Notes under the pieces: model-generated | The model's input: only the letters and a program-made list of their open reading frames with translations | Database searches by the model: none | Told to the model about the DNA's origin: nothing | DNA from: a virus | Virus record (IMG/VR): IMGVR_UViG_3300021137_000006 | Coordinates: 17,868-81,867 of that record | Strand: one strand, 5' to 3' | Length of the DNA stretch: 64,000 bases | Position numbers and translations under genes: made by a program | Shown here: positions 181 through 45,207 of the stretch, in pieces | Position numbering within the stretch: the first letter of the stretch is position 1 | How the letters are laid out: the number at the start of each line of letters is the position of its first letter

Positions 181-771
181 TTATCCGTTTAGACCAACAC
201 CACCTAGTGCCATGTTGTTAGCAACCGCGTTAGGGAAAGTTTGATACATGTGGTCGACTGAGATCGTCAAATCGATTGTCATAATATCAGATTTTGCGTA
301 ATCTACTTCGCTGCTTTTGTATTGAGAAATCATACAACCTTCATAGGTCCATGTTTCTAACACAAGACTATTACCATTTAGTAAATCAAGGATGGTAGCA
401 AACTTGTACAAGCTACCTTCTTGACTAGAAGCGAGGAATGGTGCGCCGGCGCCAATAATCGACTGTTGTAACTGTAGTTGAGCTTGAACGATGCGACCAA
501 CGGATCCGCCGATATCGTCATCTAGCTTTAAAGTTAAATCACCAATATCATGCTTGCCAAGTACTTTCGCTGTAGAATTGTAACGATGTAACTTTTGGAC
601 TTCAAACTTCAACTCAGGACGGCCAATACTTTTAGCTTGCATTGATAGTGGAGTCGTGTTGGCCAAATCGCCAAATCCTAGGAAACTAACTCTCCATTTG
701 TTCGATAGTTTTGGTTGTAGAAACCCGGTTCCGATGTCCGGAACGCCACCGACTTGTGATAATGTGCTCAT
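181..771 (-). CDS. Tail tube protein (T4 gp19-like)
   Basis: 196 aa; QPKLSNKWRVSF, RP..KFE, W..EGC.I and DY....I.LTI..D patterns typical of myophage tube proteins. Confidence 0.8.
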   Translation of the reverse strand: MSTLSQVGGVPDIGTGFLQPKLSNKWRVSFLGFGDLANTTPLSMQAKSIGRPELKFEVQKLHRYNSTAKVLGKHDIGDLTLKLDDDIGGSVGRIVQAQLQLQQSIIGAGAPFLASSQEGSLYKFATILDLLNGNSLVLETWTYEGCMISQYKSSEVDYAKSDIMTIDLTISVDHMYQTFPNAVANNMALGGVGLNG

Positions 772-37967: not shown

Positions 37968-38043
37968 CCCTGTGTAGCTTAATGGCTAGAGCAATCGGCT
38001 TTTACCCGATCAGGTGTCCGTTCGACTCGGATCACAGGGACCA
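37968..38043 (+). tRNA. tRNA-Lys(UUU)
   Basis: Cloverleaf; loop CT-TTT-AC; encoded CCA. Confidence 0.9.
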
Positions 38044-38058
38044 AAACTTATTCAATAG

Positions 38059-38271
38059 CTGTGTCCTAATTGTCACAGTATCACGGATACTTGGCGCGGT
38101 CGAAACAAACCCGCCAATAATGGAAAAAACGTTGTACAGGATAAAACGTTGTTGCAGCACTTACAAGACGCTCCTAACATCCGTCAAGGATTACTAAGAG
38201 CCGGATTAGCAGCAAAAGGCGCTAACTACGAAAGAGCGAAACAGTTATTGAATAAGAATTTGGGAGCGTAG
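38059..38271 (+). pseudogene. C-terminal remnant of an HNH endonuclease
   Basis: Startless frame LCPNCHSITDTWRGRNK...GANYERAKQLL, similar to the end of the 43005 HNH (LCPNCHSLTITYKSRN). Confidence 0.7.
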
Positions 38272-38339
38272 CTCAACTGGCTAGCAGCAATCGGCTCTTA
38301 CCCGATAGGTTCTGGGTTCAAATCCCAGTGCTCCCACCA
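38262..38339 (+). tRNA. tRNA-Lys(CUU)
   Basis: Loop CT-CTT-AC; CCA. Confidence 0.9.
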
Positions 38340-38348
38340 CAACATTAT

Positions 38349-38423
38349 GCCCGGACAGCTCATCGGTAGAGCACTCGACTGATAATCGAGCGGTGATTGG
38401 TTCGATTCCAATTCCGGGCACCA
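38349..38423 (+). tRNA. tRNA-Ile(GAU)
   Basis: Loop CT-GAT-AA; CCA. Confidence 0.92.
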
Positions 38424-38428
38424 ATTTT

Positions 38429-38503
38429 AGCCGCGTAACTCAGAGGCAGAGTAATCCCTTGATAAGGGATAAGTCGACATTTCGAAATTGTCCGTGGCTA
38501 CCA
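38429..38503 (+). tRNA. tRNA-Ile(GAU), second copy
   Basis: Loop TT-GAT-AA; CCA. Confidence 0.88.
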
Positions 38504-38510
38504 GAAATAT

Positions 38511-38588
38511 ATCACTGTCGTCTAATTGGAATAGGACACTAGACTTTCAATCTAGCAAATGCGGATTCGACTTCCGTCAGTGATACCA
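38511..38588 (+). tRNA. tRNA-Glu(UUC)
   Basis: Loop CT-TTC-AA; CCA. Confidence 0.88.
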
Positions 38589-38650
38589 TACTTTGTGATC
38601 GTCTATTGGTTAGGAGTTCTAACTCATAAATAGACATAGGAGGACTTTTT

Positions 38651-39331
38651 ATGTCTATGGGTGGTTATCGAGAAGGCTCTGGTAGGAGCAAAACAGGGTA
38701 CTACAATGGAATCTATTGTGGTAGCACTTACGAGTTGTGTTGGGTGATATATTCTATAGATCACGGAATTAACTTTACCCGATTTCCGGGATTATTGGAA
38801 GCTAATGGTGTCCGGTATTATCCAGATTTCCTACTAGGTGACGGTAAGACTATCGTCGAGACGAAAGGGTATGAAGCCCAATTAGCAGTGGATAAGAAAA
38901 CGGCTGTAGCAATTTCTCATGGGTATGTTGTGCAAGTTCTCCGTAAGGATGATCTAAAATACGCTTTCGATTATGTATCTGAAAAGTATGGCACCAAGCG
39001 ATACCACACTTTGTATGATGGATACGCACCGACGTATGACTATATTTGTGATTGTTGTGGACAGCCATTTCGAGTCGATTCTAAAAAGAAAACAGAACGA
39101 AAATTCTGCAATAGAGTATGTGCGGGTAAATTCCGAAAACAACTAATCCTGCAACAAGATGACTGGAGAGACCGAATTTCAGCATCCTTAACGGGACGGA
39201 AGGTTAAGCCGTATCAAAGAAAATATAAACAAAAGTGGATTACTGACGGTAAACTTAATACGAAGATTCAGTTTGATCTTTGTATACCGGATGGATTTCA
39301 CCAAGGGCGAACAAATTCTGTGCAGGACTAA
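38651..39331 (+). CDS. PD-(D/E)XK homing-endonuclease-like protein
   Basis: STYE, YYPDF, VETKG, Zn ribbon, WITDG..N....IPDGF..GR tail. Confidence 0.75.
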   Translation: MSMGGYREGSGRSKTGYYNGIYCGSTYELCWVIYSIDHGINFTRFPGLLEANGVRYYPDFLLGDGKTIVETKGYEAQLAVDKKTAVAISHGYVVQVLRKDDLKYAFDYVSEKYGTKRYHTLYDGYAPTYDYICDCCGQPFRVDSKKKTERKFCNRVCAGKFRKQLILQQDDWRDRISASLTGRKVKPYQRKYKQKWITDGKLNTKIQFDLCIPDGFHQGRTNSVQD

Positions 39332-39353
39332 ACTCCTCAGCAGTGCCATTTAT

Positions 39354-39428
39354 ATCACGTTGGACTTCTAGTGAGGTCATCTGCCTTTCACGCAGACCAG
39401 ACGAGAGCGTAACTCGTACGTGATGCCA
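39354..39428 (+). tRNA. tRNA-Glu(UUC), atypical T-loop
   Basis: Loop CT-TTC-AC; T-loop AGCGTAA; CCA. Confidence 0.8.
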
Positions 39429-39512
39429 TTTACCGCCCATCCTGTGAAGGACCGGCTTCGTGATGACTCGTTTATTGACCGAGGGATACCAAATAGTCAA
39501 TAAGAATTTTAT

Positions 39513-39590
39513 GGCCTATGAGTCTGCTTGGTGTGGACGCTACCCTGTCACGGTAGAGATAGATCGGTTCAAATCCGATATAGGTCGCCA
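39513..39590 (+). tRNA. tRNA-Asp(GUC)
   Basis: Loop CT-GTC-AC; CCA. Confidence 0.88.
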
Positions 39591-39640
39591 ATTATGTTCG
39601 GGATCGAATCATAAATATGTTCGATCACATGGAGTAGTGT

Positions 39641-40054
39641 ATGAAGAAAGTATGTTCTAAATGCCAGCAAGAAAAAGAGCTGTCGGAGTTTAGAAAAGAC
39701 AAATCCCGCAAGGATGGGGTAATGTCAAGCTGCAAACAATGCACTAGACAGTTTTACAAAAGCCAGTATGTGACAAAGTACGGCGACAAATATGCGACTG
39801 CAAACAGAAAGCGTAGAGCTAATCAAGCAGCCATGTTGTACGAATATAAGAGTAAGCAGAAGTGCTTATTTTGTGACGAGCGAGAGCCAGTCTGCTTAGA
39901 GTTCCATCACACCGATCCGTCAATCAAAGATTTTGGAGTCGGTTCGAGCGTGGGACGCAACTGGGAAAAGATCCTCGCAGAGATTGAAAAATGTGTGTGC
40001 CTGTGCAGCAATTGTCACAAAAAGGTACATGCAGGTTTATTAATTATACAGTAG
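39641..40054 (+). CDS. HNH endonuclease
   Basis: CSKC..CKQC, CLFC, LEFHH.DP..K, EI.KC..LCSNCH.K.H. Confidence 0.85.
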   Translation: MKKVCSKCQQEKELSEFRKDKSRKDGVMSSCKQCTRQFYKSQYVTKYGDKYATANRKRRANQAAMLYEYKSKQKCLFCDEREPVCLEFHHTDPSIKDFGVGSSVGRNWEKILAEIEKCVCLCSNCHKKVHAGLLIIQ

Positions 40055-40123
40055 TAGCATAGCGGCTAATGCACCTCCCTGTCTAGGAGACTACCGCGGG
40101 TTCGAGTCCCGTCTACTGTGCCA
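40048..40123 (+). tRNA. tRNA-Asp(GUC), second copy
   Basis: Loop CT-GTC-TA (U37); CCA. Confidence 0.85.
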
Positions 40124-40128
40124 AATAT

Positions 40129-40200
40129 GGGTAGCTTAGCATAATGTAAATGCGCTCACGTTGAGTGAGAGATATTGAGCCATCTCAATAGACGCCCCCA
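40129..40200 (+). ncRNA. Degenerate tRNA-like element
   Basis: D-like arm, CTCAC-GTTGA-GTGAG arm, non-canonical T-like arm ATTGAG-CCAT-CTCAAT, ends in CCA. Confidence 0.5.
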
Positions 40201-40206
40201 AGTTTA

Positions 40207-40266
40207 AGGATACGAACAGCAAATCTAAACAATTTGACCTTTTAATTCAAACCTAAAGTGTATCCT
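40207..40266 (+). ncRNA. Small RNA with a 7-bp terminal stem and a Lys-like anticodon arm
   Basis: AGGATAC/GTATCCT stem enclosing TTTGA-cCTTTTAAt-TCAAA. Confidence 0.45.
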
Positions 40267-40276
40267 GTCTTATTTT

Positions 40277-40352
40277 CCACTTCTAGCTGACAAAGTATTA
40301 GCGCTGGGCTGAAAATCCAGAGATCCTGGGGCGGTACCAGGGGAGTGGGCCA
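40277..40352 (+). tRNA. tRNA-Phe(GAA), atypical T-loop
   Basis: Loop CT-GAA-AA; T-loop GGCGGTA; CCA. Confidence 0.8.
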
Positions 40353-40359
40353 ATTTTAT

Positions 40360-40435
40360 GCAGCCATAGCTCAGTTAGGAGAGCACCGGATTGAAACCCC
40401 GGGTGTCGCTGGGGCGGATCCAGCTGGTTGCACCA
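40360..40435 (+). tRNA. tRNA-Phe(GAA), second copy, atypical T-loop
   Basis: Loop TT-GAA-AC; T-loop GGCGGAT; CCA. Confidence 0.82.
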
Positions 40436-40466
40436 TTTTATAAATATACTACCTCAGGAGAGTATT

Positions 40467-40790
40467 ATGAAGAAGATTCTTGTAAGTTTACTATTAGCTG
40501 TCGCAGCAAGTTCCGCATTTGCTGATCGTTGTTGCTACCGAGGTGGTTGGGGTCATGGAGGCGGCTGGATCGGTCCAGTACTCAGTGGTGTCATCGGGTA
40601 TGAAATTGGACAAAGTCAGCGTCAGACGGTACTCGTGCAACAACAACCTGCGTATGTACAACCTGTGTATGTACAACCTGCTCCGATCATTATCACAGAT
40701 CCCAACCAAGTTGTAATCAACGGCAAGCTGTACCGCAAGCAATTGATGAATATCGATGGCGTAGTGCAGGAAGTGCTCGTAGCACAATAA
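40467..40790 (+). CDS. Secreted Gly-rich / xVQP-repeat protein
   Basis: Signal peptide MKKILVSLLLAVAASSAFA; SD AGGAG; TATAAATA upstream. Confidence 0.75.
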   Translation: MKKILVSLLLAVAASSAFADRCCYRGGWGHGGGWIGPVLSGVIGYEIGQSQRQTVLVQQQPAYVQPVYVQPAPIIITDPNQVVINGKLYRKQLMNIDGVVQEVLVAQ

Positions 40791-40796
40791 CCACAT

Positions 40797-40870
40797 GGTT
40801 CGTTAGCTCAATGGTAGAGCACTGCTTTGACTCGGCAGACACAAAGGTTCGATTCCTTTACGATCCACCA
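40797..40870 (+). tRNA. tRNA-Val(GAC)
   Basis: Loop TT-GAC-TC; CCA. Confidence 0.88.
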
Positions 40871-40877
40871 AACAAAT

Positions 40878-40965
40878 GGAAGGTTAATCTCACTGGGTGA
40901 GACACTGCTTCGAACGCAGTCGGACTCCGCAAGGGGTTAGAGTTCGATCCTCTATCCTTCCTCCA
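40878..40965 (+). tRNA. tRNA-Ser(CGA)
   Basis: Loop TT-CGA-AC; long variable arm; CCA. Confidence 0.85.
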
Positions 40966-40986
40966 ATTTTTACAAAGCATAGAGGT

Positions 40987-41057
40987 GTGACGTTAGTGTA
41001 GCGGCAGCACCCCAGATTGTGATTCTGTTAGTACGGGTTCGACCCCCGTACGTCACC
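40987..41057 (+). tRNA. tRNA-His(GUG), no encoded G-1 or CCA
   Basis: Loop TT-GTG-AT; C73; followed by CCT. Confidence 0.82.
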
Positions 41058-41078
41058 CCTGTGTGCTTTGTAACGTTC

Positions 41079-41155
41079 GGTGCGGTAGTATTATTAGCAA
41101 TACGCGGTCCTCATAAGGCTGAATGAAGGGAGTGCAAATCTCCCCCGCACCACCA
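41079..41155 (+). tRNA. tRNA-Met (or Ile2)(CAU)
   Basis: Loop CT-CAT-AA; G1-C72 paired, so not initiator-type; T-loop TGCAAAT; CCA. Confidence 0.82.
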
Positions 41156-41161
41156 AATCTG

Positions 41162-41212
41162 TTGACCTTTTTGGAAATAGGGTAGATAATTACCGTATTG
41201 ACAAACAAAGGA
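41162..41212 (+). promoter_or_regulatory. Early sigma70 promoter + RBS cassette, copy 1
   Basis: TTGACC-17-GATAAT; the 35 bp TAGGGTAGATAATTACCGTATTGACAAACAAAGGA is identical in the copy at 46960. Confidence 0.8.
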
Positions 41213-41218
41213 CACAAA

Positions 41219-41407
41219 ATGAAGATCACAATCCACACTTGCCCTTACAAAGGTTTCCGCCACATCACCGTTGGTGGAGATAGTTCATCTTACACTGCTA
41301 ACCTGTACGGAAAGTGCTGGAGCGTGTTTTACAAGGGACAGTTGATTGGTGCTACTCCGAAAGTGCGTCGGATTGAATTCATCATTGCTGAAAGTTTGAA
41401 GCCGTGA
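41219..41407 (+). CDS. Small hypothetical early protein
   Basis: Directly after the promoter/SD cassette. Confidence 0.65.
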   Translation: MKITIHTCPYKGFRHITVGGDSSSYTANLYGKCWSVFYKGQLIGATPKVRRIEFIIAESLKP

Positions 41408-41444
41408 CTAAATACGCTAATACACACAACACGAAGGTATAAAA

Positions 41445-41801
41445 ATGTCCCCAGAACAATTCTTGACGCTGGCTGGTATACCAGTAACAACACAGATCGT
41501 TCGTCGATTGAACGAAGCAGTTAAGTCAGGTGATCAGTTTTCACAATCTAAAGCCAGAGTACTGGCGGTGATTGATACTTTCTACCAACAGTACGGGATC
41601 AAAGGGTATGTGAATAGGTTCTTTGATGCCGAAGCTGCAGCCCAGGGAATATTCTTTAAAGCTGAAGTCGGTAATTATAATCCGGAAGAAGTAGATGTGT
41701 CGGAAGTACTCGATGAGTTGAATAGCATCCCAGGAGTGCATGCTGAGGAGTGTTATACGGCAGATCAAACATATGGAGTAGAGATTACAATTAATCGTTG
41801 A
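41445..41801 (+). CDS. Putative head-packaged hypothetical protein
   Basis: TAAATA at 41409; FLTLAGI...LNEA N-terminus. Confidence 0.6.
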   Translation: MSPEQFLTLAGIPVTTQIVRRLNEAVKSGDQFSQSKARVLAVIDTFYQQYGIKGYVNRFFDAEAAAQGIFFKAEVGNYNPEEVDVSEVLDELNSIPGVHAEECYTADQTYGVEITINR

Positions 41802-41832
41802 CTTGTTTGTAGTGTGGTGAGATAATTATCAC

Positions 41833-42009
41833 ATGAATAAATTTAAAGCACTTGCAGCGAAGTATGATTTCACCTTGTGGTACGATCGTAGTTTGAAATT
41901 GTGGTCACTGACTGATAATACAGGTCAGAAAGATGCGTATTACTTCACCAAGCACTTGATAGTGTCTGTGTCACTGGAGGCATTCGAACATTATCACTTC
42001 AATGACTAG
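41833..42009 (+). CDS. Small hypothetical protein (58 aa, not in the ORF track)
   Basis: MNKFKALAAKYDFTLWYDRSLKLWSL...; TTGACT-17-GATAAT at 41798-41826 suggests a near-leaderless mRNA. Confidence 0.55.
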   Translation: MNKFKALAAKYDFTLWYDRSLKLWSLTDNTGQKDAYYFTKHLIVSVSLEAFEHYHFND

Positions 42010-42226
42010 CATGCTGGTTAAAACTTACAAAAATGTGTACAGCTCTGATCTACGAGCGCGAGCAGGGCATCCGCCTGATGTGCTGCAATTGCGAATCGTG
42101 GACGAAACTGGAGTCCTCCATTGGGTTGGAGAGCATGCGCTGCCAGAAGACGATGACGCATATCGTGCGAATCTTAAGCGAGTGAGAGCTCGGTTGGTGT
42201 ACGCTGCGAAAAAACATGGGTATTGA
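42002..42226 (+). CDS. Hypothetical protein
   Basis: ORF in the small-gene cluster. Confidence 0.5.
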   Translation: MTSMLVKTYKNVYSSDLRARAGHPPDVLQLRIVDETGVLHWVGEHALPEDDDAYRANLKRVRARLVYAAKKHGY

Positions 42227-42265
42227 CCAGTTGCTAACTTAATCAATTACAACGACTATTGACAT

Positions 42266-42520
42266 ATGATATACAAACAAACGGTTATCGCAATTTCTAT
42301 TCACCAAACGGGTGTGAATCCAATCTTCGGTGAAGGTGCCACGCACGTTAAGTTGTGTGATGATGCAGCTGGGTATTTCATTGAGTTGAGTCAGGCAGAC
42401 GAATCTGCTGAAAATGGTGTAGTGCGATTTGACCCAACGGAATGGGAAGCAATCAACGCTGCAGTGAAGACGCTGCTAAATAGCGCACCAGTTGCAGACA
42501 ACTTTGCTAGTGTTGTATAA
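42266..42520 (+). CDS. Hypothetical protein
   Basis: NPIFGEGAT....DDAAG.F..L.Q pattern. Confidence 0.6.
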   Translation: MIYKQTVIAISIHQTGVNPIFGEGATHVKLCDDAAGYFIELSQADESAENGVVRFDPTEWEAINAAVKTLLNSAPVADNFASVV

Positions 42521-42530
42521 TAAGAATATT

Positions 42531-42618
42531 GGGGTGTGGAGGTACTGGGTACCAAGCGGCTTTGAATACCGTTCCACTGTTAATAGCGGTGATAGTTCGA
42601 TTCTATCACGCCCCGCCA
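42531..42618 (+). tRNA. tRNA-Ser(UGA)
   Basis: Loop TT-TGA-AT; long variable arm; G73; CCA. Confidence 0.8.
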
Positions 42619-42624
42619 AGATTT

Positions 42625-42716
42625 GGAAGATTTTCTAGTCAGGGATACTAGCCGCGCTTGGAAAGCACGTGGAGCGTCAATGTGCGCCGGAGGTTCGAAT
42701 CCTCAGTCTTCCGCCA
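42625..42716 (+). tRNA. tRNA-Ser(GGA)
   Basis: Loop TT-GGA-AA; long variable arm; G73; CCA. Confidence 0.87.
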
Positions 42717-42724
42717 TGAAATGT

Positions 42725-42841
42725 AGTTGCTCCTGCTGGGCCAGGAGTTCCCACCGAGGGTAGTATGCTATTCGATTCAGCTGAAAGTATGGTACACATA
42801 AATCCGCACGGTTCGGAAAGGTTCGAATCCTTTAGCAACTT
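42725..42841 (+). ncRNA. tRNA-like RNA: acceptor stem and canonical T-arm with an expanded non-tRNA core
   Basis: AGTTGCT/AGCAACT stem; AAAGG-TTCGAAT-CCTTT arm. Confidence 0.55.
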
Positions 42842-42849
42842 CGTATATT

Positions 42850-42924
42850 GCCCTTGAAGTGTAGACAGCGACACACTTGTTTCGTAATCAAGAGAGTGGT
42901 GGGCAGGTCACCACAAGGGCACCA
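42850..42924 (+). tRNA. tRNA-Thr(CGU), atypical T-loop
   Basis: Loop TT-CGT-AA; T-loop GGCAGGT; CCA. Confidence 0.8.
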
Positions 42925-43004
42925 TTTAAAAGAGTTTTCGTCCCCTGCGAGAATTCTTCTAAATGGTCGGATTTTTCAGACTATATACATTAAGCGGATA
43001 CAGA

Positions 43005-43421
43005 ATGGCGTACAGCAAGCACAATATAACATGCTTACACTGTGGCACGGAGCGAGAACAGAGCAAACACTCAGCAAGAGGAAAGTTCTGTTCAAACAGG
43101 TGTCAAGTTGATTACCAGTACAACCAGTTTATACAGCGTTGGTTAGCTGGCGAGGAGACTGGTTTGAGTGGACAGCGTGGAATAAGTTTGCACGTTCGAC
43201 GTTTTGTATTTGAAAAGTTTGATAGCAAGTGTGTTGAGTGTGGCTGGAATCAAAAGCACCCAACAGATGGTCGAATTCCACTGGAAGTAGATCACATAGA
43301 TGGTAACTGGATGAATACGACGGAATCTAATTTGCGGTTGTTGTGTCCAAACTGTCATTCACTTACGATAACTTATAAGTCGAGAAATCGACAGAGTAGT
43401 AGAAAGTACAAGCCCGATTAG
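43005..43421 (+). CDS. HNH endonuclease
   Basis: CLHC..FCS..C, CVECG, LEVDHIDGN..N....NLRLLCPNCH. Confidence 0.9.
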   Translation: MAYSKHNITCLHCGTEREQSKHSARGKFCSNRCQVDYQYNQFIQRWLAGEETGLSGQRGISLHVRRFVFEKFDSKCVECGWNQKHPTDGRIPLEVDHIDGNWMNTTESNLRLLCPNCHSLTITYKSRNRQSSRKYKPD

Positions 43422-43559
43422 CTCAGGGGTAGAGCAACCGCCTTTTCGGAGAGGATAATGACCTCTCTCCACAGGAGATTCTCACGAGTCTCCTGTACAG
43501 GAGGATAACTCCAAAAGGTAAGCGGTAGGTCGTCTGTTCGAATCAGACATTGGGCACCA
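43412..43559 (+). tRNA. tRNA-Thr(UGU) interrupted by a 73-nt insertion in the anticodon
   Basis: Joining 43412-43444 to 43518-43559 gives a canonical cloverleaf with ACCGC-CTTGTAA-GCGGT. Confidence 0.8.
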
Positions 43560-43566
43560 AAATTTA

Positions 43567-43641
43567 GCTCCTAAAGTGTAGATGGCGACACACTGGTTTT
43601 GTAATCCAGAAAGCGAGGTTCAAGTCCTCGTGGGAGCACCA
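43567..43641 (+). tRNA. tRNA-Thr(UGU)
   Basis: Loop TT-TGT-AA; CCA. Confidence 0.88.
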
Positions 43642-43646
43642 TATAT

Positions 43647-43721
43647 GGGTCGTTAGTTCAGCGGTAGAACTCTATCCTTACACGGTAGCTGTCGGCGGTT
43701 CGATCCCGTCACGACCCACCA
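43647..43721 (+). tRNA. tRNA-Val(UAC)
   Basis: Loop CT-TAC-AC; CCA. Confidence 0.92.
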
Positions 43722-43727
43722 CCTTAT

Positions 43728-43802
43728 ACGCGGGTAACTCAGAGGCAGAGTAACTCTGTTACATAGAGAAGGCCGGGATTTCGAAATTCCCCCTGCGTAC
43801 CA
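43728..43802 (+). tRNA. tRNA-Val(UAC), second copy
   Basis: Loop GT-TAC-AT; CCA. Confidence 0.82.
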
Positions 43803-43806
43803 ATTT

Positions 43807-43881
43807 GCCCATTTATTTCAGTGGTAGACAGCTTTCTTGGTAAGAAAGAGGACATTGGTTCAATTCCAATAATGGGCACCA
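43807..43881 (+). tRNA. tRNA-Thr(GGU)
   Basis: Loop TT-GGT-AA; CCA. Confidence 0.87.
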
Positions 43882-43925
43882 CTTATTGCCACCAATTCCC
43901 AGCAATCTCTGCTGTAAGTAACTAC

Positions 43926-44639
43926 ATGGCAAAAATCTTCTTACGCTTACCATCCACGTCTTCAGTGGACCTACGACCAGATGCTGATTATGTTATCAAT
44001 CAGCAATCGTACGGCTCTTGTACAGCAAACGCAGGGTGCGCGTGCATGGAAATTATGTACAAGCAACGTAATGATGTGTCGATCGAATTTAGTAGATTGT
44101 TTTTATACTTCTGTGAGCGGACATTAGAAGGTGCACCCGACGACGATGTCGGTGCACCGGCTGTTCTAATTGGAGAATCTTTACTAACTTACGGAGTGTG
44201 CAAAGAAGAATTGTGGCAATATAATAAAGAGAATATGTTCGATACTCCACCCCAAGCTGCGTTTGATCAAGCACTCTCTTATAGAATTGCTGGATATCGA
44301 CTATTAGATGGAGCCTTACTTACCGCAATTAAAACCAGTTTGAATAACGGTGTCCCAATTTTGCTTAGTTTAATTGTAACAACGTCATTCAGAACCTTGA
44401 CGGGACCCTGGAAGACTCATAACTGGAACACTACAATAACACGTAGTAATAAAGTACTCGGTGGACACGAAGTTGCGATCATTGGATATGATGATGCTGC
44501 TAAGCGACTGTTAATTGAAAATTCCTGGGGACGCGGATGGGGAGATGGTGGATTCGGCGGCATTCGATATAGCGCTATCGATTCTCAACTATTCGGAGAC
44601 CTGTGGGTCCTACAACCAAATTTTGCGACTGTATCATAA
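43926..44639 (+). CDS. Papain-family (C1A) cysteine protease
   Basis: VDLR, QQSYGSCTANA, SRLFLY, GGHEV.IIGYDD, ENSWG..WG..G. Confidence 0.92.
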   Translation: MAKIFLRLPSTSSVDLRPDADYVINQQSYGSCTANAGCACMEIMYKQRNDVSIEFSRLFLYFCERTLEGAPDDDVGAPAVLIGESLLTYGVCKEELWQYNKENMFDTPPQAAFDQALSYRIAGYRLLDGALLTAIKTSLNNGVPILLSLIVTTSFRTLTGPWKTHNWNTTITRSNKVLGGHEVAIIGYDDAAKRLLIENSWGRGWGDGGFGGIRYSAIDSQLFGDLWVLQPNFATVS

Positions 44640-44701
44640 CTGGATAATGTCCAACCTTGCGAGGGTTGATTATGGAGGTTCAAGTCCTCTCGGTCGCACC
44701 A
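44625..44701 (+). tRNA. tRNA-Arg(GCG)
   Basis: Loop TT-GCG-AG; D-loop ACTGGATA with the Arg-type A20; CCA. Confidence 0.85.
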
Positions 44702-44732
44702 CTAAATAAACACACGCAATTTTGATAGTTTT

Positions 44733-44818
44733 GGAGAAGTGGCGAAATGGTAGCCGCACTTGTTTGCTAAACAAGCACTGGAAACGGTGTGCAGGTTCAA
44801 GTCCTGTCTTCTCCGCCA
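44733..44818 (+). tRNA. tRNA-Ser(GCU)
   Basis: Loop TT-GCT-AA; long variable arm; CCA. Confidence 0.9.
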
Positions 44819-44843
44819 ATTTATACAACTAGGAGCTTAACAC

Positions 44844-45014
44844 ATGGCACGCAAGCACGGTAGAGAACTAATTAAACTAGAGTCCACATCCGGTTCAGGA
44901 CACTTCTACACAACTGACAAGAATAAGAAGACTACTCCGGGGAAACTGGAGTTCAACCTGTACGACCCAATCATTCGCAAGCACGTCGCTTACAAAGAAG
45001 TTAAGCTCAAATAA
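44844..45014 (+). CDS. rpmG: Ribosomal protein bL33 (56 aa, not in the ORF track)
   Basis: [56 protein letters not shown]; SD AGGAG. Confidence 0.93.
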
Positions 45015-45020
45015 CAGAAT

Positions 45021-45126
45021 TTTGTAGTTAAGTCGGTCAGACTTTGGTAAAGGCGATGCGGAATGGTTTAGGCCACGTTAAATATCGAAGCGCATCTTAA
45101 TGATAATGTGTGCAGCCTACTACAAA
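45021..45126 (+). ncRNA. Candidate structured RNA (about 106 nt)
   Basis: TTTGTAGT/ACTACAAA terminal stem; AAGTC/GACTT and GATGCG/CGCATC helices; possible TAGGC/GCCTA pseudoknot. Confidence 0.55.
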
Positions 45127-45129
45127 TAT

Positions 45130-45207
45130 GCGTCCGTAGCTTAACTGGATAAAGCACTGGAATTCGAATCCAGTAGATTGCACGTTCAAGTCGTGTCGGG
45201 CGCACCA
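45130..45207 (+). tRNA. tRNA-Arg(UCG)
   Basis: Loop AT-TCG-AA; CCA. Confidence 0.85.

What the first reader, a model, noticed from the sequence alone, without database searches (positions are those of the whole stretch)
43412..43559. tRNA-Thr with a 73-nt, fully structured insertion inside the anticodon
Seen: removing 43445-43517 restores a canonical tRNA-Thr(UGU); shifting both junctions one base upstream gives Thr(GGU). The insert folds into three hairpins (GGAGAGG/CCTCTC, ACAGGAGATTC/GAGTCTCCTGT, GGAG/CTCC) closed by CCTTTT/AAAAGG, with GGATAA repeated in two of them. The junctions (exon U, insert-terminal G) resemble group I introns, but the insert is far too short for a ribozyme core. 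An HNH gene ends inside this tRNA's 5' end. Inference: a mini-intron removed in trans or by a protein, an insertion that immunises the allele against the adjacent HNH, or a tRNA scaffold displaying a GGA-rich aptamer (CsrA/RsmA-like sites; speculative). An intact Thr(UGU) follows, so the gene could also be dispensable.
Basis: partly seen in the sequence, partly recalled or inferred. Interest (0 to 1): 0.75.

Follow-up and report, generated by a model that had tools for sequence, protein, structure and literature searches.

The report
Structured mini-intron in phage tRNA-Thr
A threonine tRNA gene of a large freshwater phage is split inside its anticodon by a conserved 73-base folded insert that cannot splice itself, which suggests, without proving, an enzyme-driven way of splicing tRNA not yet shown for bacteria or their viruses.

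Summary
Bases 43412-43559 are a tRNA-Thr(UGU) gene interrupted between U34 and G35 by a 73-nt insert (43445-43517). Joining the exons gives exactly a tRNA-Thr(UGU) that 35 of 35 readable viral loci carry uninterrupted, so the junction is fixed and the GGU reading falls.

The insert is not a scar. Eleven other contigs carry homologous 75-78-nt inserts at the same site, in five sequence variants. They share a closing helix and three hairpins, with compensatory changes in seven pairs. Exons differ at 0-1 of 75 positions where inserts differ at 14-26 of about 76.

It matches no group I intron, small ribozyme or tRNA model, and its terminal G is not conserved. True group I introns occupy the same site in four other contigs.

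The abutting HNH gene belongs to a family that lay within 100 nt of a tRNA-Thr(UGU) gene in 9 of 10 cultured phages examined.

Best reading (about 0.5): a protein-dependent mini-intron, possibly also shielding the gene from the neighbouring nuclease. Splicing is not shown.

This scan has noted similar phage tRNA mini-introns, and the HNH/tRNA-Thr link, on other DNA. In print I found only the 'enigmatic' Lak megaphage tRNA introns.

The parts
43005..43421 (+). Free-standing HNH endonuclease gene. The called product is 138 aa; the open frame starts at 42963. Its last three codons and the TAG stop overlap the first 10 bases of the tRNA.
   Evidence: ORF list. Pfam HNH, E 4.3e-5, 24 bits against a cut-off of 21.4. 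The 138-aa form is the one on record. Homologs abut tRNA-Thr(UGU) in 9 of 10 cultured phages examined.
43412..43444 (+). 5' exon of tRNA-Thr(UGU): acceptor 5' strand, D arm, anticodon-stem 5' strand, then C32 U33 U34.
   Evidence: Rfam tRNA alignment. ARAGORN with introns allowed. Identical to the uninterrupted alleles.
43445..43517 (+). 73-nt intervening sequence (mini-intron candidate) between U34 and G35.
   Evidence: The junction is fixed by 35 uninterrupted alleles. Homologous inserts lie in 11 other loci. No Rfam hit at E<=10 other than chance-level ones.
43442..43446 (+). 5' strand of the closing helix (C32 U33 U34 plus the first two insert bases). It pairs with 43514-43518, that is, three insert A, the insert-terminal G and exon G35. 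U36 A37 A38 (43519-43521) are left as a 3-nt bulge.
   Evidence: Minimum-energy fold. RNAalifold consensus. 93% of cells paired, with one-sided changes only.
43448..43468 (+). Hairpin 1: a 7-bp purine/pyrimidine stem (43448-43454 with 43462-43468) and the 7-nt loop AUAAUGA. The family consensus for the loop is WUMAWGA.
   Evidence: Three pairs have changes on both sides and 100% of cells are paired.
43471..43496 (+). Hairpin 2: an 11-bp stem (43471-43481 with 43486-43496) and the loop UCAC.
   Evidence: Four pairs have changes on both sides and 100% of cells are paired.
43500..43512 (+). Hairpin 3: GGAG/CUCC stem with loop GAUAA, preceded by CAGGAG, which is invariant in the family.
   Evidence: The stem is almost invariant, so covariation says nothing about it.
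43518..43559 (+). 3' exon: G35 U36 A37 A38, anticodon-stem 3' strand, variable loop, T arm, acceptor 3' strand, discriminator A and an encoded CCA.
43567..43641 (+). Second, uninterrupted tRNA-Thr(UGU) with a different body ('type B'), 7 nt downstream. It is a distinct tRNA, not a copy of the interrupted gene.
   Evidence: ARAGORN. Rfam 54.2 bits. Sequence comparison.

Best explanation
The 73 bases are one member of a small conserved family of structured intervening sequences. These sit exactly between U34 and G35 of a tRNA-Thr(UGU) gene that is widespread among phages of environmental metagenomes. The insert folds, on the tRNA-sense strand, into a four-way junction. A 5-bp closing helix uses C32, U33, U34 and G35 of the anticodon loop, and three hairpins branch from it. 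It has no ribozyme core. The most likely reading is that it is transcribed within the pre-tRNA, cut out by protein endonuclease(s), and the two tRNA halves are sealed by an RNA ligase to give a working tRNA-Thr(UGU). That would be a protein-dependent mini-intron. One geometry fits a double-strand RNase. In the consensus helix the two junctions are offset by 2 bp with a 3' overhang, which is how RNase III cuts. Such a cut would leave the 3'-OH and 5'-phosphate ends that a T4 Rnl1-type ligase seals. At the DNA level the insert splits the anticodon-loop sequence. It may thereby protect this allele from the abutting HNH homing endonuclease, so that nuclease gene and insert spread together in the manner of 'collaborative homing'. 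What is shown: the insert, its exact junction, family conservation, a covariation-supported fold, exon conservation, and the link between this HNH family and tRNA-Thr(UGU) genes. What is inferred: transcription, excision, ligation, the enzymes involved, and any protection from the HNH.
For: (1) The exact junction and uninterrupted alleles come. (2) The family comprises 12 copies (the window plus 11 loci) in 5 sequence variants of 73-78 nt, all at U34|G35. (3) Fold: RNAalifold gives the tRNA cloverleaf plus a closing helix and three hairpins. 98.2% of cells are paired. Ten pairs change on both sides, seven of them in insert hairpins 1 and 2, a count that 0 of 500 shuffles reach. Slid controls give 0-1 such pairs. 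G-U pairs place the fold on the tRNA-sense strand. (4) Selection on the tRNA: among the window, L050, L058 and L038 the exons differ at 0-1 of 75 positions while the inserts differ at 14-26 of 75-78. L087 carries the same insert as L058, with two compensatory pair changes in the T stem. C32 U33 U34 and G35 U36 A37 A38 are invariant in all variants. (5) The site tolerates introns: group I introns of 209-539 nt sit at the same U34|G35 in L165, L176, L137 and L152. Rfam scores L176 at 50.7 bits, above the family's cut-off, and L165 at 34.7 bits, E 1e-5. (6) Other inserts occur in the same phage group. In L087 and L157 a 32-nt hairpin sits exactly at U34|A35 of tRNA-Leu(UAA). The otherwise syntenic L058 lacks it cleanly. 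(7) HNH link: a tRNA-Thr(tgt) lies within 100 nt of the homolog in 9 of 10 cultured phages examined. The nuclease gene overlaps the tRNA start in two of them, as it does here. A homolog lies 9 nt downstream of the insert-bearing allele in L050. None abuts the 35 intact alleles: 2 of 5 variants against 0 of 35 loci, Fisher p 0.013, though the loci are not independent. (8) In print, Lak megaphage tRNAs carry 'enigmatic' conserved introns. One is a tRNA-Thr(TGT) intron that may itself fold as a tRNA (PMC6784885, passages read).
Against: No RNA data exist for this locus, so neither transcription nor splicing is shown. No bacterial or phage enzyme is known to excise such an insert. The 82-kb record, estimated 23% complete, holds no RNA ligase (Rnl1, Rnl2 or RtcB families), no RNase III and no splicing endonuclease; a fragment cannot show absence. 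The closing helix has only 5 bp and its register is ambiguous in the window's own sequence, so it is a poor RNase III substrate by itself. The 32-nt insert in tRNA-Leu(UAA) of L087 has its junctions in single-stranded flanks, so a single RNase III rule does not cover all inserts of these phages. A second tRNA-Thr(UGU) gene lies 7 nt downstream, so the interrupted gene could be dispensable. In L053 the tRNA body looks damaged, with two acceptor mismatches and a T-arm indel, while the insert fold is kept. That fits an insert-centred function better than a tRNA-centred one. Exon identity could also come from gene conversion with the abundant intact alleles. Three of the five variants have no homolog of this HNH in the held flanks.
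Confidence: 0.5

Rival explanations
1. The insert is never removed. The 148-nt RNA would be a stable non-decoding RNA that uses the tRNA body as a scaffold for processing by RNase P and for stability. The three-hairpin module would do the work, for example as a decoy or binding platform for a host or phage protein. Hairpin 1 has the shape of an anticodon arm, with a 7-nt loop carrying U at position 2 and GA at positions 6-7.
For: The insert's fold is under selection in its own right. The hairpin-1 loop is conserved as WUMAWGA and the CAGGAG before hairpin 3 is invariant. In L053 the insert fold is kept while the tRNA body has decayed. A separate intact tRNA-Thr(UGU) gene is present in the window, in L050 and in L103. 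No splicing enzyme is known.
Against: The anticodon-loop bases U36 A37 A38 are bulged and unused by the insert fold, yet they are invariant. The exons match decoding alleles base for base. The same site holds self-splicing introns in other phages. Relatives carry quite different inserts at position 34|35 of other tRNAs, with clean presence/absence alleles, which looks like intron behaviour. The covariance model finds no free-standing copy outside a tRNA in 1.48 Mb of held sequence.
Confidence: 0.2
2. The insert is a DNA-level selfish or protective element only. It would break the recognition site of a tRNA-Thr-targeting homing endonuclease, or hitch-hike with it, and inactivate the tRNA. The loss would be tolerated because the 'type B' tRNA-Thr(UGU) next door decodes the same codons. 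Exon identity would be kept by gene conversion with intact alleles of co-infecting phages.
For: The HNH abuts the interrupted gene here and in L050. The HNH family is tied to tRNA-Thr(UGU) genes. Nuclease-like genes lie near other carriers. L141 and L157 have SegE-type GIY-YIG matches, which are weak at 21 bits, below the cut-off. L058 has an HNH at 40 bits. L058 and L087 share an identical insert but differ in the 3' exon, which points to recombination inside the gene. A paralog is present.
Against: A mere spacer would not keep three hairpins through seven compensatory pair changes on the RNA-sense strand. Conversion by intact alleles should erase the insert as readily as it homogenises the exons. 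The L038 group has no nuclease gene next to the tRNA. In the 9 cultured phages the HNH sits beside uninterrupted tRNA-Thr genes, so an insert is not needed for coexistence.
Confidence: 0.2
3. The insert is a degenerate group I intron, a deletion remnant of the introns found at the same site. It would be spliced in trans by a full-length ribozyme, or not at all.
For: The insertion site is the same as that of the real group I introns in L165, L176, L137 and L152. The 5' exon ends in U. The insert ends in G in 3 of 5 variants.
Against: No group I match appears at E<=10. No local similarity to the four group I introns exceeds the mean of shuffled controls in any of 20 comparisons. The terminal base is A in L050 and L053. 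U34 pairs with A in most variants rather than with G. No group I intron is found in the 82-kb record. The insert has its own conserved fold, unrelated to the P1-P9 helices of a group I core.
Confidence: 0.04
4. The insert is a miniature transposable element of the MITE or IS200/IS605 'PATE' type that happened to land in the anticodon.
For: It is hairpin-rich, and its imperfect terminal inverted repeat (CCTTTTCGGAG ... CTCCAAAAGG) is present in the window copy. A truncated TnpB-like remnant lies about 0.8 kb from the L038 copy.
Against: There is one copy per contig, always at the same base of the same tRNA. The covariance model finds no other copy in 1.48 Mb and the own genome holds one copy. 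There is no target duplication. The extended terminal repeat is not conserved in the relatives. G-U pairs favour an RNA fold on the sense strand.
Confidence: 0.03

Closest known systems
'Enigmatic' introns in tRNA genes of Lak megaphages (Devoto et al. 2019, PMC6784885; passages read, supplements closed)
   Same: These are short conserved inserts in phage tRNA genes that fit no Rfam class. Their excision points were defined by aligning alleles with and without the insert. One sits in a tRNA-Thr(TGT) and may itself fold like a tRNA, and the insert here is also a cloverleaf-shaped four-way junction.
   Different: The phages differ: freshwater metagenome contigs here, AT-rich gut Lak phages there. 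I could not see the Lak intron sequences (Supplementary Table 6), so homology is untested. Here the insert matches no tRNA model. No mechanism is known for either.
Group I (subgroup IC3-like) introns in tRNA anticodon loops, such as those of cyanobacterial tRNA-Leu(UAA) and Azoarcus tRNA-Ile (review PMC3984707, passages read; the subgroup label is recalled)
   Same: They insert in the anticodon loop after a U. The very same U34|G35 site of this tRNA-Thr(UGU) holds real group I introns in four other contigs. They may be linked with homing endonucleases.
   Different: The insert is 73 nt against at least 209 nt. It has no catalytic core and no conserved terminal G, shares no sequence similarity, and cannot self-splice by that chemistry.
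Archaeal and eukaryal bulge-helix-bulge tRNA introns cut by the splicing endonuclease
   Same: These too are short, protein-spliced introns in or near the anticodon loop that pair with the anticodon.
   Different: Here the junctions lie inside or at the closing helix, not in two 3-nt bulges 4 bp apart. The only 3-nt bulge consists of exon bases 36-38. No splicing endonuclease is found in the held 82 kb, and none is known in bacteria (the last point is recalled).
Collaborative (trans) homing: a free-standing endonuclease beside an ORF-less intron that interrupts its target. Examples are F-CphI with the psbA intron and T4 mobE (PMC6083498 and PMC2790892, seen in the search listing only; PMC3984707 Fig. 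5 legend read)
   Same: A free-standing nuclease gene lies directly beside a gene whose conserved site is split by an ORF-less insert. The nuclease family tracks that gene across phages.
   Different: The partner there is a self-splicing group I intron. Here the insert cannot self-splice, and cleavage specificity has not been tested.
73-nt cloverleaf-like insert in tRNA-Leu(CAA) of the laboratory Caulobacter phage Cr30 (NC_025422; ARAGORN; lead from earlier scan notes)
   Same: It has the same length class and the same plan, a closing helix plus three hairpins, inside a phage tRNA anticodon loop.
   Different: The tRNA differs and the position appears to be 32|33. Sequence family also differs: model R1 finds nothing in Cr30. 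I did not check its conservation.

Membership tests
tRNA (Rfam RF00005), for the exons | Cloverleaf with conserved D and T elements, scoring above the family's gathering score of 29 bits | tested here: met
   52.3 bits with the insert treated as a gap. The joined exons equal uninterrupted tRNA-Thr(UGU) genes.
Group I intron | Catalytic core (helices P3-P9) detectable by RF00028 | tested here: not met
   No RF00028 hit at E<=10 on 43300-43700 or on the insert alone. At 73 nt it is far shorter than the 209-539-nt introns at the same site.
Group I intron | Conserved 3'-terminal G of the intron | tested here: not met
   G in the window, L058 and L038 variants; A in L050 and L053. All four real group I introns at the site end in G.
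Group I intron | The 5' exon ends in a U that forms a U-G pair in helix P1 | tested here: inconclusive
   U34 is invariant. In the consensus fold it pairs with A in 4 rows and with G in 2. An alternative P1 with GAGG 43451-43454 is possible in the window only; that is my reading.
Bulge-helix-bulge (archaeal type) tRNA intron | Both junctions lie in 3-nt bulges separated by a 4-bp helix | tested here: not met
   In the consensus fold the junctions lie within the closing helix. The single 3-nt bulge consists of exon bases U36 A37 A38.
Bulge-helix-bulge (archaeal type) tRNA intron | A splicing endonuclease (Pfam tRNA_int_endo) is available | tested here: inconclusive
   None in the 82-kb record, which is about 23% complete.
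Small self-cleaving ribozymes (hammerhead, twister, hairpin, pistol, hatchet) | Match to the Rfam model | tested here: not met
   Nothing on the insert at E<=10. The one twister-P5 line (19 bits, E 0.1) lies on the next tRNA, not on the insert.
tRNA-like ('tRNA within a tRNA') intron | The insert itself scores as a tRNA | tested here: not met
   No RF00005 hit on the insert alone. ARAGORN at default settings finds none in any of the 5 variants. Only the four-way-junction topology is shared.
Phage tRNA mini-introns of unknown mechanism (Lak 'enigmatic' introns) | A short conserved insert in a phage tRNA anticodon loop, with exact insert-free alleles and no known intron class | tested here: met
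Phage tRNA mini-introns of unknown mechanism (Lak 'enigmatic' introns) | Removal from the transcript | not testable with these tools
   No RNA run is listed for this DNA.
MITE or IS200/IS605-type miniature element | Several copies at different sites | tested here: not met
   One copy in the own record. Model R1 finds only the 12 tRNA-Thr copies in 1.48 Mb.
Free-standing HNH homing endonuclease (the neighbour gene) | HNH nuclease domain | tested here: met
   Pfam PF01844, 24 bits against a cut-off of 21.4. 4594 homologs.
Free-standing HNH homing endonuclease (the neighbour gene) | Recurrent position beside one conserved target gene in unrelated genomes | tested here: met
   A tRNA-Thr(tgt) lies within 100 nt in 9 of the 10 cultured phages that I picked from the 25 listed hits.
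Free-standing HNH homing endonuclease (the neighbour gene) | Cuts the allele that lacks it (and lacks the insert) and spares its own | not testable with these tools
   This needs an enzyme assay.

The most novel reading that the evidence does not exclude
Large phages of bacteria would run a protein-catalysed tRNA splicing pathway, endonuclease plus RNA ligase, that removes a whole zoo of structured mini-introns placed at or next to anticodon position 34|35. This three-hairpin family in tRNA-Thr(UGU) would be one class of them. The introns would persist because they shield tRNA genes from the homing endonucleases that crowd phage tRNA clusters.
Probability: 0.35. Interest if true: 0.85.

Novelty: new variant of a known kind. 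Interest (0 to 1): 0.68.

Why it matters
A 2014 review states that every phage group I intron seen up to then lay in a protein-coding gene, despite the many phage tRNA genes (PMC3984707, passage read). That bacterial tRNA introns are otherwise taken to be self-splicing group I introns is textbook knowledge, recalled.

A conserved, structure-constrained insert that cannot self-splice, in a tRNA whose exons stay nearly invariant, implies one of two things. Either there is an undescribed protein-based excision and ligation route in bacteria or phages, or there is a new class of tRNA-scaffolded RNAs. Either would be new biology, and both can be tested with a 148-nt construct.

The exact coincidence with a group I intron site, and with a nuclease family that tracks tRNA-Thr(UGU), also makes this a compact case for studying how homing endonucleases and intervening sequences co-evolve on a tRNA target.

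Tried and rejected
Peptide idea. The window's insert holds a Shine-Dalgarno-like GGAGAGG followed by an ATG that opens a 16-codon frame (my reading). The ATG is absent in L050, whose loop reads ATAAAGA, and the frames differ between variants. Rejected.

CsrA sponge. The GGA motifs lie in stems and covary, and the doubled GGATAA is not conserved. Rejected.

Promoter or terminator inside the insert. None found.

Relatives among cultured phages. No near match. Distant blastn hit only the neighbouring ordinary tRNAs.

Pattern scans that added nothing:
- Exact 23-mer of hairpin 1 in viral contigs: 0 hits.
- Hairpin-1/hairpin-2 pattern: 7 loci, of which only L038 is real.
- 3'-junction 15-mer: 27 loci, mostly chance matches in coding sequence, plus L038, L165 and L176.
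- Genome collection: 0 hits, then 18 hits that were all chance matches in coding sequence.

Most were tRNA-Lys(UUU) genes and 10 carried the insert. More variants may therefore exist, and some metagenome loci may be the same scaffold as the viral record behind L038.

HNH relatives in viral contigs: none by the search for related loci.

RNA evidence: no RNA holder listed.

Enzyme searches in the 82-kb record were all empty: Rnl1, RtcB, Rnl2, tRNA_int_endo and RNase III families, and group I introns. The Rnl1 family also rang in none of the control genomes. These blanks show nothing for a record that is about 23% complete.

Model R1 on phage Cr30: nothing.

RNase P/RNase Z reading. The closing helix is built largely from exon bases, and the 5' junction does not lie at the base of an acceptor-like stem. 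I dropped it for this family.

Supplements of PMC6784885 (Lak intron sequences) were closed, so homology to the Lak tRNA-Thr intron is untested.

In four paper searches I found no paper describing this three-hairpin insert.
Full report
WHAT IS THERE. The window is part of an 81,867-base viral record estimated to be 23% complete. It holds a phage tRNA cluster of about 20 genes interspersed with HNH-type genes. At 43412-43559 the Rfam tRNA model scores 52.3 bits if 76 bases in the anticodon loop are skipped. ARAGORN with introns allowed reports tRNA-Thr(tgt) with a 73-nt intron. The whole RNA folds to -61.1 kcal/mol (z -4.87) and the insert alone to -33.3 kcal/mol (z -4.63); in each case 0 of 200 shuffles fold as well. 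Contigs of two other public DNA runs cover 42700-43547 without a difference, so the insert is not an assembly artefact.

THE JUNCTION. A 27-mer of the 3' half finds 36 viral loci. Thirty-five of them read ...ACCGCCTTGTAAGCGGT... uninterrupted, and one is cut at the locus start. Joining 43444 to 43518 reproduces that gene exactly and no other cut does. The insert is therefore 43445-43517 and the anticodon is UGU.

A FAMILY, NOT A SCAR.
- I searched for the 5' exon followed by anything but G. This found one viral locus (L038) and, among 119 metagenome loci, ten more.
- Together with the window there are 12 copies in 5 sequence variants of 73, 75, 75, 75 and 78 nt. All lie between U34 and G35 of the same tRNA-Thr(UGU).
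- Some metagenome loci may be the same scaffold as L038, so the number of independent carriers is lower than 12.
- A covariance model built from the five variants finds only these copies in 1.48 Mb of held sequence. Two pattern scans of 185,579 prokaryote genomes found no copy.

THE FOLD.
- RNAalifold on six rows gives the tRNA cloverleaf plus a 5-bp closing helix and three hairpins.
- The closing helix pairs C32 with G35, U33 with the last insert base, U34 with the one before it, and then two insert U-A pairs.
- On that structure 98.2% of cells are paired and 10 pairs change on both sides. Three of these lie in hairpin 1, four in hairpin 2 and the rest in the tRNA.
- None of 500 shuffles reaches 10 such pairs, and sliding the partners by 1-3 columns gives 0-1.
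- With only five variants this is modest in depth but clear in direction.
- G-U pairs place the fold on the tRNA-sense strand.
- Conserved unpaired elements are the hairpin-1 loop WUMAWGA and the CAGGAG ahead of hairpin 3.

WHAT IT IS NOT.
- No Rfam family reaches E<=10 on the insert beyond chance-level lines. That excludes group I introns, tRNA and the small ribozymes.
- ARAGORN at default settings sees no tRNA in any variant's insert.
- The last insert base is A in two variants, so the group I hallmark of a terminal G fails.
- The junctions are not in bulges, so the archaeal bulge-helix-bulge rule fails.
- There is one copy per contig, so it is not a proliferating miniature transposon.

SELECTION ON THE tRNA.
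- Among the window, L050, L058 and L038 the exons differ at 0-1 of 75 positions, while the inserts differ at 14-26 of 75-78.
- L087 has the same insert as L058 but a T stem with two compensatory pair changes.
- The seven anticodon-loop bases are invariant, including the bulged U36 A37 A38.
- This argues against a dead gene. It fits a tRNA that is still used, though gene conversion from the abundant intact alleles could contribute.
- L053 is the exception: its acceptor stem has two mismatches and its T arm an extra base, yet the insert fold is intact.

THE SAME SITE HOLDS REAL INTRONS. In L165, L176, L137 and L152, homologous tRNA-Thr(UGU) genes carry inserts of 209, 215, 292 and 539 nt at exactly U34|G35. 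L176 reaches the Rfam group I gathering score at 50.7 bits, and L165 scores 34.7 bits, E 1e-5. L137 and L152 were not called at E<=0.001, but by eye they share core strings with the other two. All four end in G. None shows local similarity to the mini-inserts above shuffled controls, in 20 comparisons.

OTHER INSERTS IN THE SAME PHAGES. ARAGORN with introns allowed flags further interrupted tRNAs in the carrier contigs. I checked one. In L087 and L157 a 32-nt hairpin lies exactly between U34 and A35 of tRNA-Leu(UAA), and the otherwise near-identical, syntenic L058 lacks it cleanly. So exact gain or loss of short inserts at 34|35 happens between close relatives. This behaviour is intron-like. 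The other flagged cases are unverified.

THE HNH NEIGHBOUR.
- The 138-aa HNH gene (43005-43421) ends ten bases inside the tRNA.
- tblastn against cultured phages finds 209 records.
- From the 25 listed I picked 10 to span different phage groups, so the sample is not random.
- ARAGORN finds a tRNA-Thr(tgt) within 100 nt of the homolog in 9 of them; the exception is Pectobacterium phage CB7.
- In two of the nine, coliphage HdH2 and cyanophage DSL-LC03, the nuclease gene overlaps the tRNA start as it does here.
- All nine tRNAs are uninterrupted, and by eye several have bodies like the window's second tRNA-Thr(UGU) ('type B', 43567-43641).
- In L050 a homolog (38% identity) starts 9 nt after the insert-bearing gene, with a type B gene 63 nt upstream.
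- Among the 35 intact 'type A' loci none has a homolog next to the tRNA. L036 has one 1.2 kb away, beside tRNA-Leu.
- Two of five variants against 0 of 35 loci gives Fisher p 0.013. The loci are not independent and their flanks vary in length.
- Other carriers have other nuclease-like genes nearby: weak SegE-type GIY-YIG matches in L141 and L157, and an HNH in L058. The L038 group has none.

HOW IT MOST LIKELY WORKS. The exons look used and the insert cannot splice itself. Its fold is selected, and related phages gain and lose other short inserts at the same anticodon position. The simplest reading is therefore a mini-intron removed by proteins. In the consensus helix the 5' cut (after U34) and the 3' cut (before G35) are offset by two base pairs, leaving a 3' overhang. 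That is the RNase III pattern and would give ends that an Rnl1-type ligase seals. This step is inference only. The helix is short and its register slips by one in the window's own fold. The 32-nt tRNA-Leu insert does not share the geometry. I therefore give about 0.5 to 'spliced by proteins' and far less to RNase III specifically. Protection from the neighbouring HNH can hold together with splicing and is plausible but untested.

WHAT IS KNOWN. Devoto et al. (PMC6784885, passages read) reported conserved 'enigmatic' introns in Lak megaphage tRNAs, including a tRNA-Thr(TGT) intron that may fold as a tRNA. They stated that introns in phage tRNAs had not been reported before. A 2014 review says that all phage group I introns then known lay in protein-coding genes (PMC3984707). 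Four paper searches found nothing on this three-hairpin family.

Earlier notes of this scan describe similar mini-introns in other phage tRNAs and the HNH/tRNA-Thr link. I treated them as leads. I checked the Cr30 lead: that phage has a 73-nt cloverleaf-like insert in tRNA-Leu(CAA), but it belongs to a different sequence family. I checked the HNH link as described above.

VERDICT. This is a new sequence family of a barely described kind, phage tRNA mini-introns of unknown mechanism. It has good comparative support for function and no direct evidence for splicing.

Noticed in passing
L165 (about 304-516, minus strand), L176 (1416-1617, minus strand), L137 (tRNA c[1255,1622]) and L152: Real group I introns of 209-539 nt interrupt phage tRNA-Thr(UGU) genes at U34|G35. 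A 2014 review says that all phage group I introns then known lay in protein-coding genes.
   Followed up: partly
Window 43005-43421; loci L190-L199: This HNH family sits within 100 nt of a tRNA-Thr(tgt) gene in 9 of 10 cultured phages examined. They span T5-like phages, jumbo Mimasvirus, cyanophage, Vequintavirinae and an Enterococcus phage. This points to a homing endonuclease lineage that targets the tRNA-Thr(UGU) gene.
   Followed up: partly
L087 c[593,711] and L157 4938-5058, compared with L058 c[1035,1123]: A 32-nt hairpin insert lies exactly at U34|A35 of tRNA-Leu(UAA) in two contigs and is cleanly absent in a syntenic close relative. ARAGORN mislabels the interrupted gene as Arg(tct).
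   Followed up: partly
L157 4788-4925, 7575-7685 and 8987-9116; L141 118-251; L050 351-480; L053 29-117: ARAGORN with introns allowed flags further tRNAs with inserts of 14-55 nt in the contigs that carry the Thr insert. These are unverified and some may be false calls.
   Followed up: no
L205 1934-2092 (Caulobacter phage Cr30, NC_025422): The tRNA-Leu(caa) of a laboratory phage carries a 73-nt insert with a closing helix and three hairpins. It is a culturable model for this kind of insert, but a different sequence family.
   Followed up: partly
Window 40360-40432, 42850-42921 and 43728-43799: The Rfam tRNA model matches these stretches at 49.8, 35.3 and 43.4 bits, but ARAGORN does not call them. 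They may be unusual tRNAs or tRNA-like RNAs in the cluster.
   Followed up: no
Window 37968-45207: Many tRNAs come in pairs of different sequence with the same or a related anticodon: Ile(gat) x2, Glu(ttc) x2, Asp(gtc) x2 and Thr(tgt) x2. Several other viral loci also carry two different tRNA-Thr(UGU) genes side by side (L012, L013, L020, L027, L034).
   Followed up: no
Window 43926-44639: A papain-family cysteine peptidase gene (Pfam Peptidase_C1, E 2e-11) lies inside the tRNA cluster.
   Followed up: no
L038 1038-1361, minus strand: A truncated TnpB-like remnant (HTH_OrfB_IS605 plus the Cas12f1-like TNB domain, 108 aa) lies about 0.8 kb from the insert-bearing tRNA.
   Followed up: no
L053 1025-1175, minus strand: This insert-bearing tRNA-Thr has a damaged body, with two acceptor mismatches and one extra base in the T arm. 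Its insert nevertheless keeps all three hairpins through compensatory changes.
   Followed up: partly
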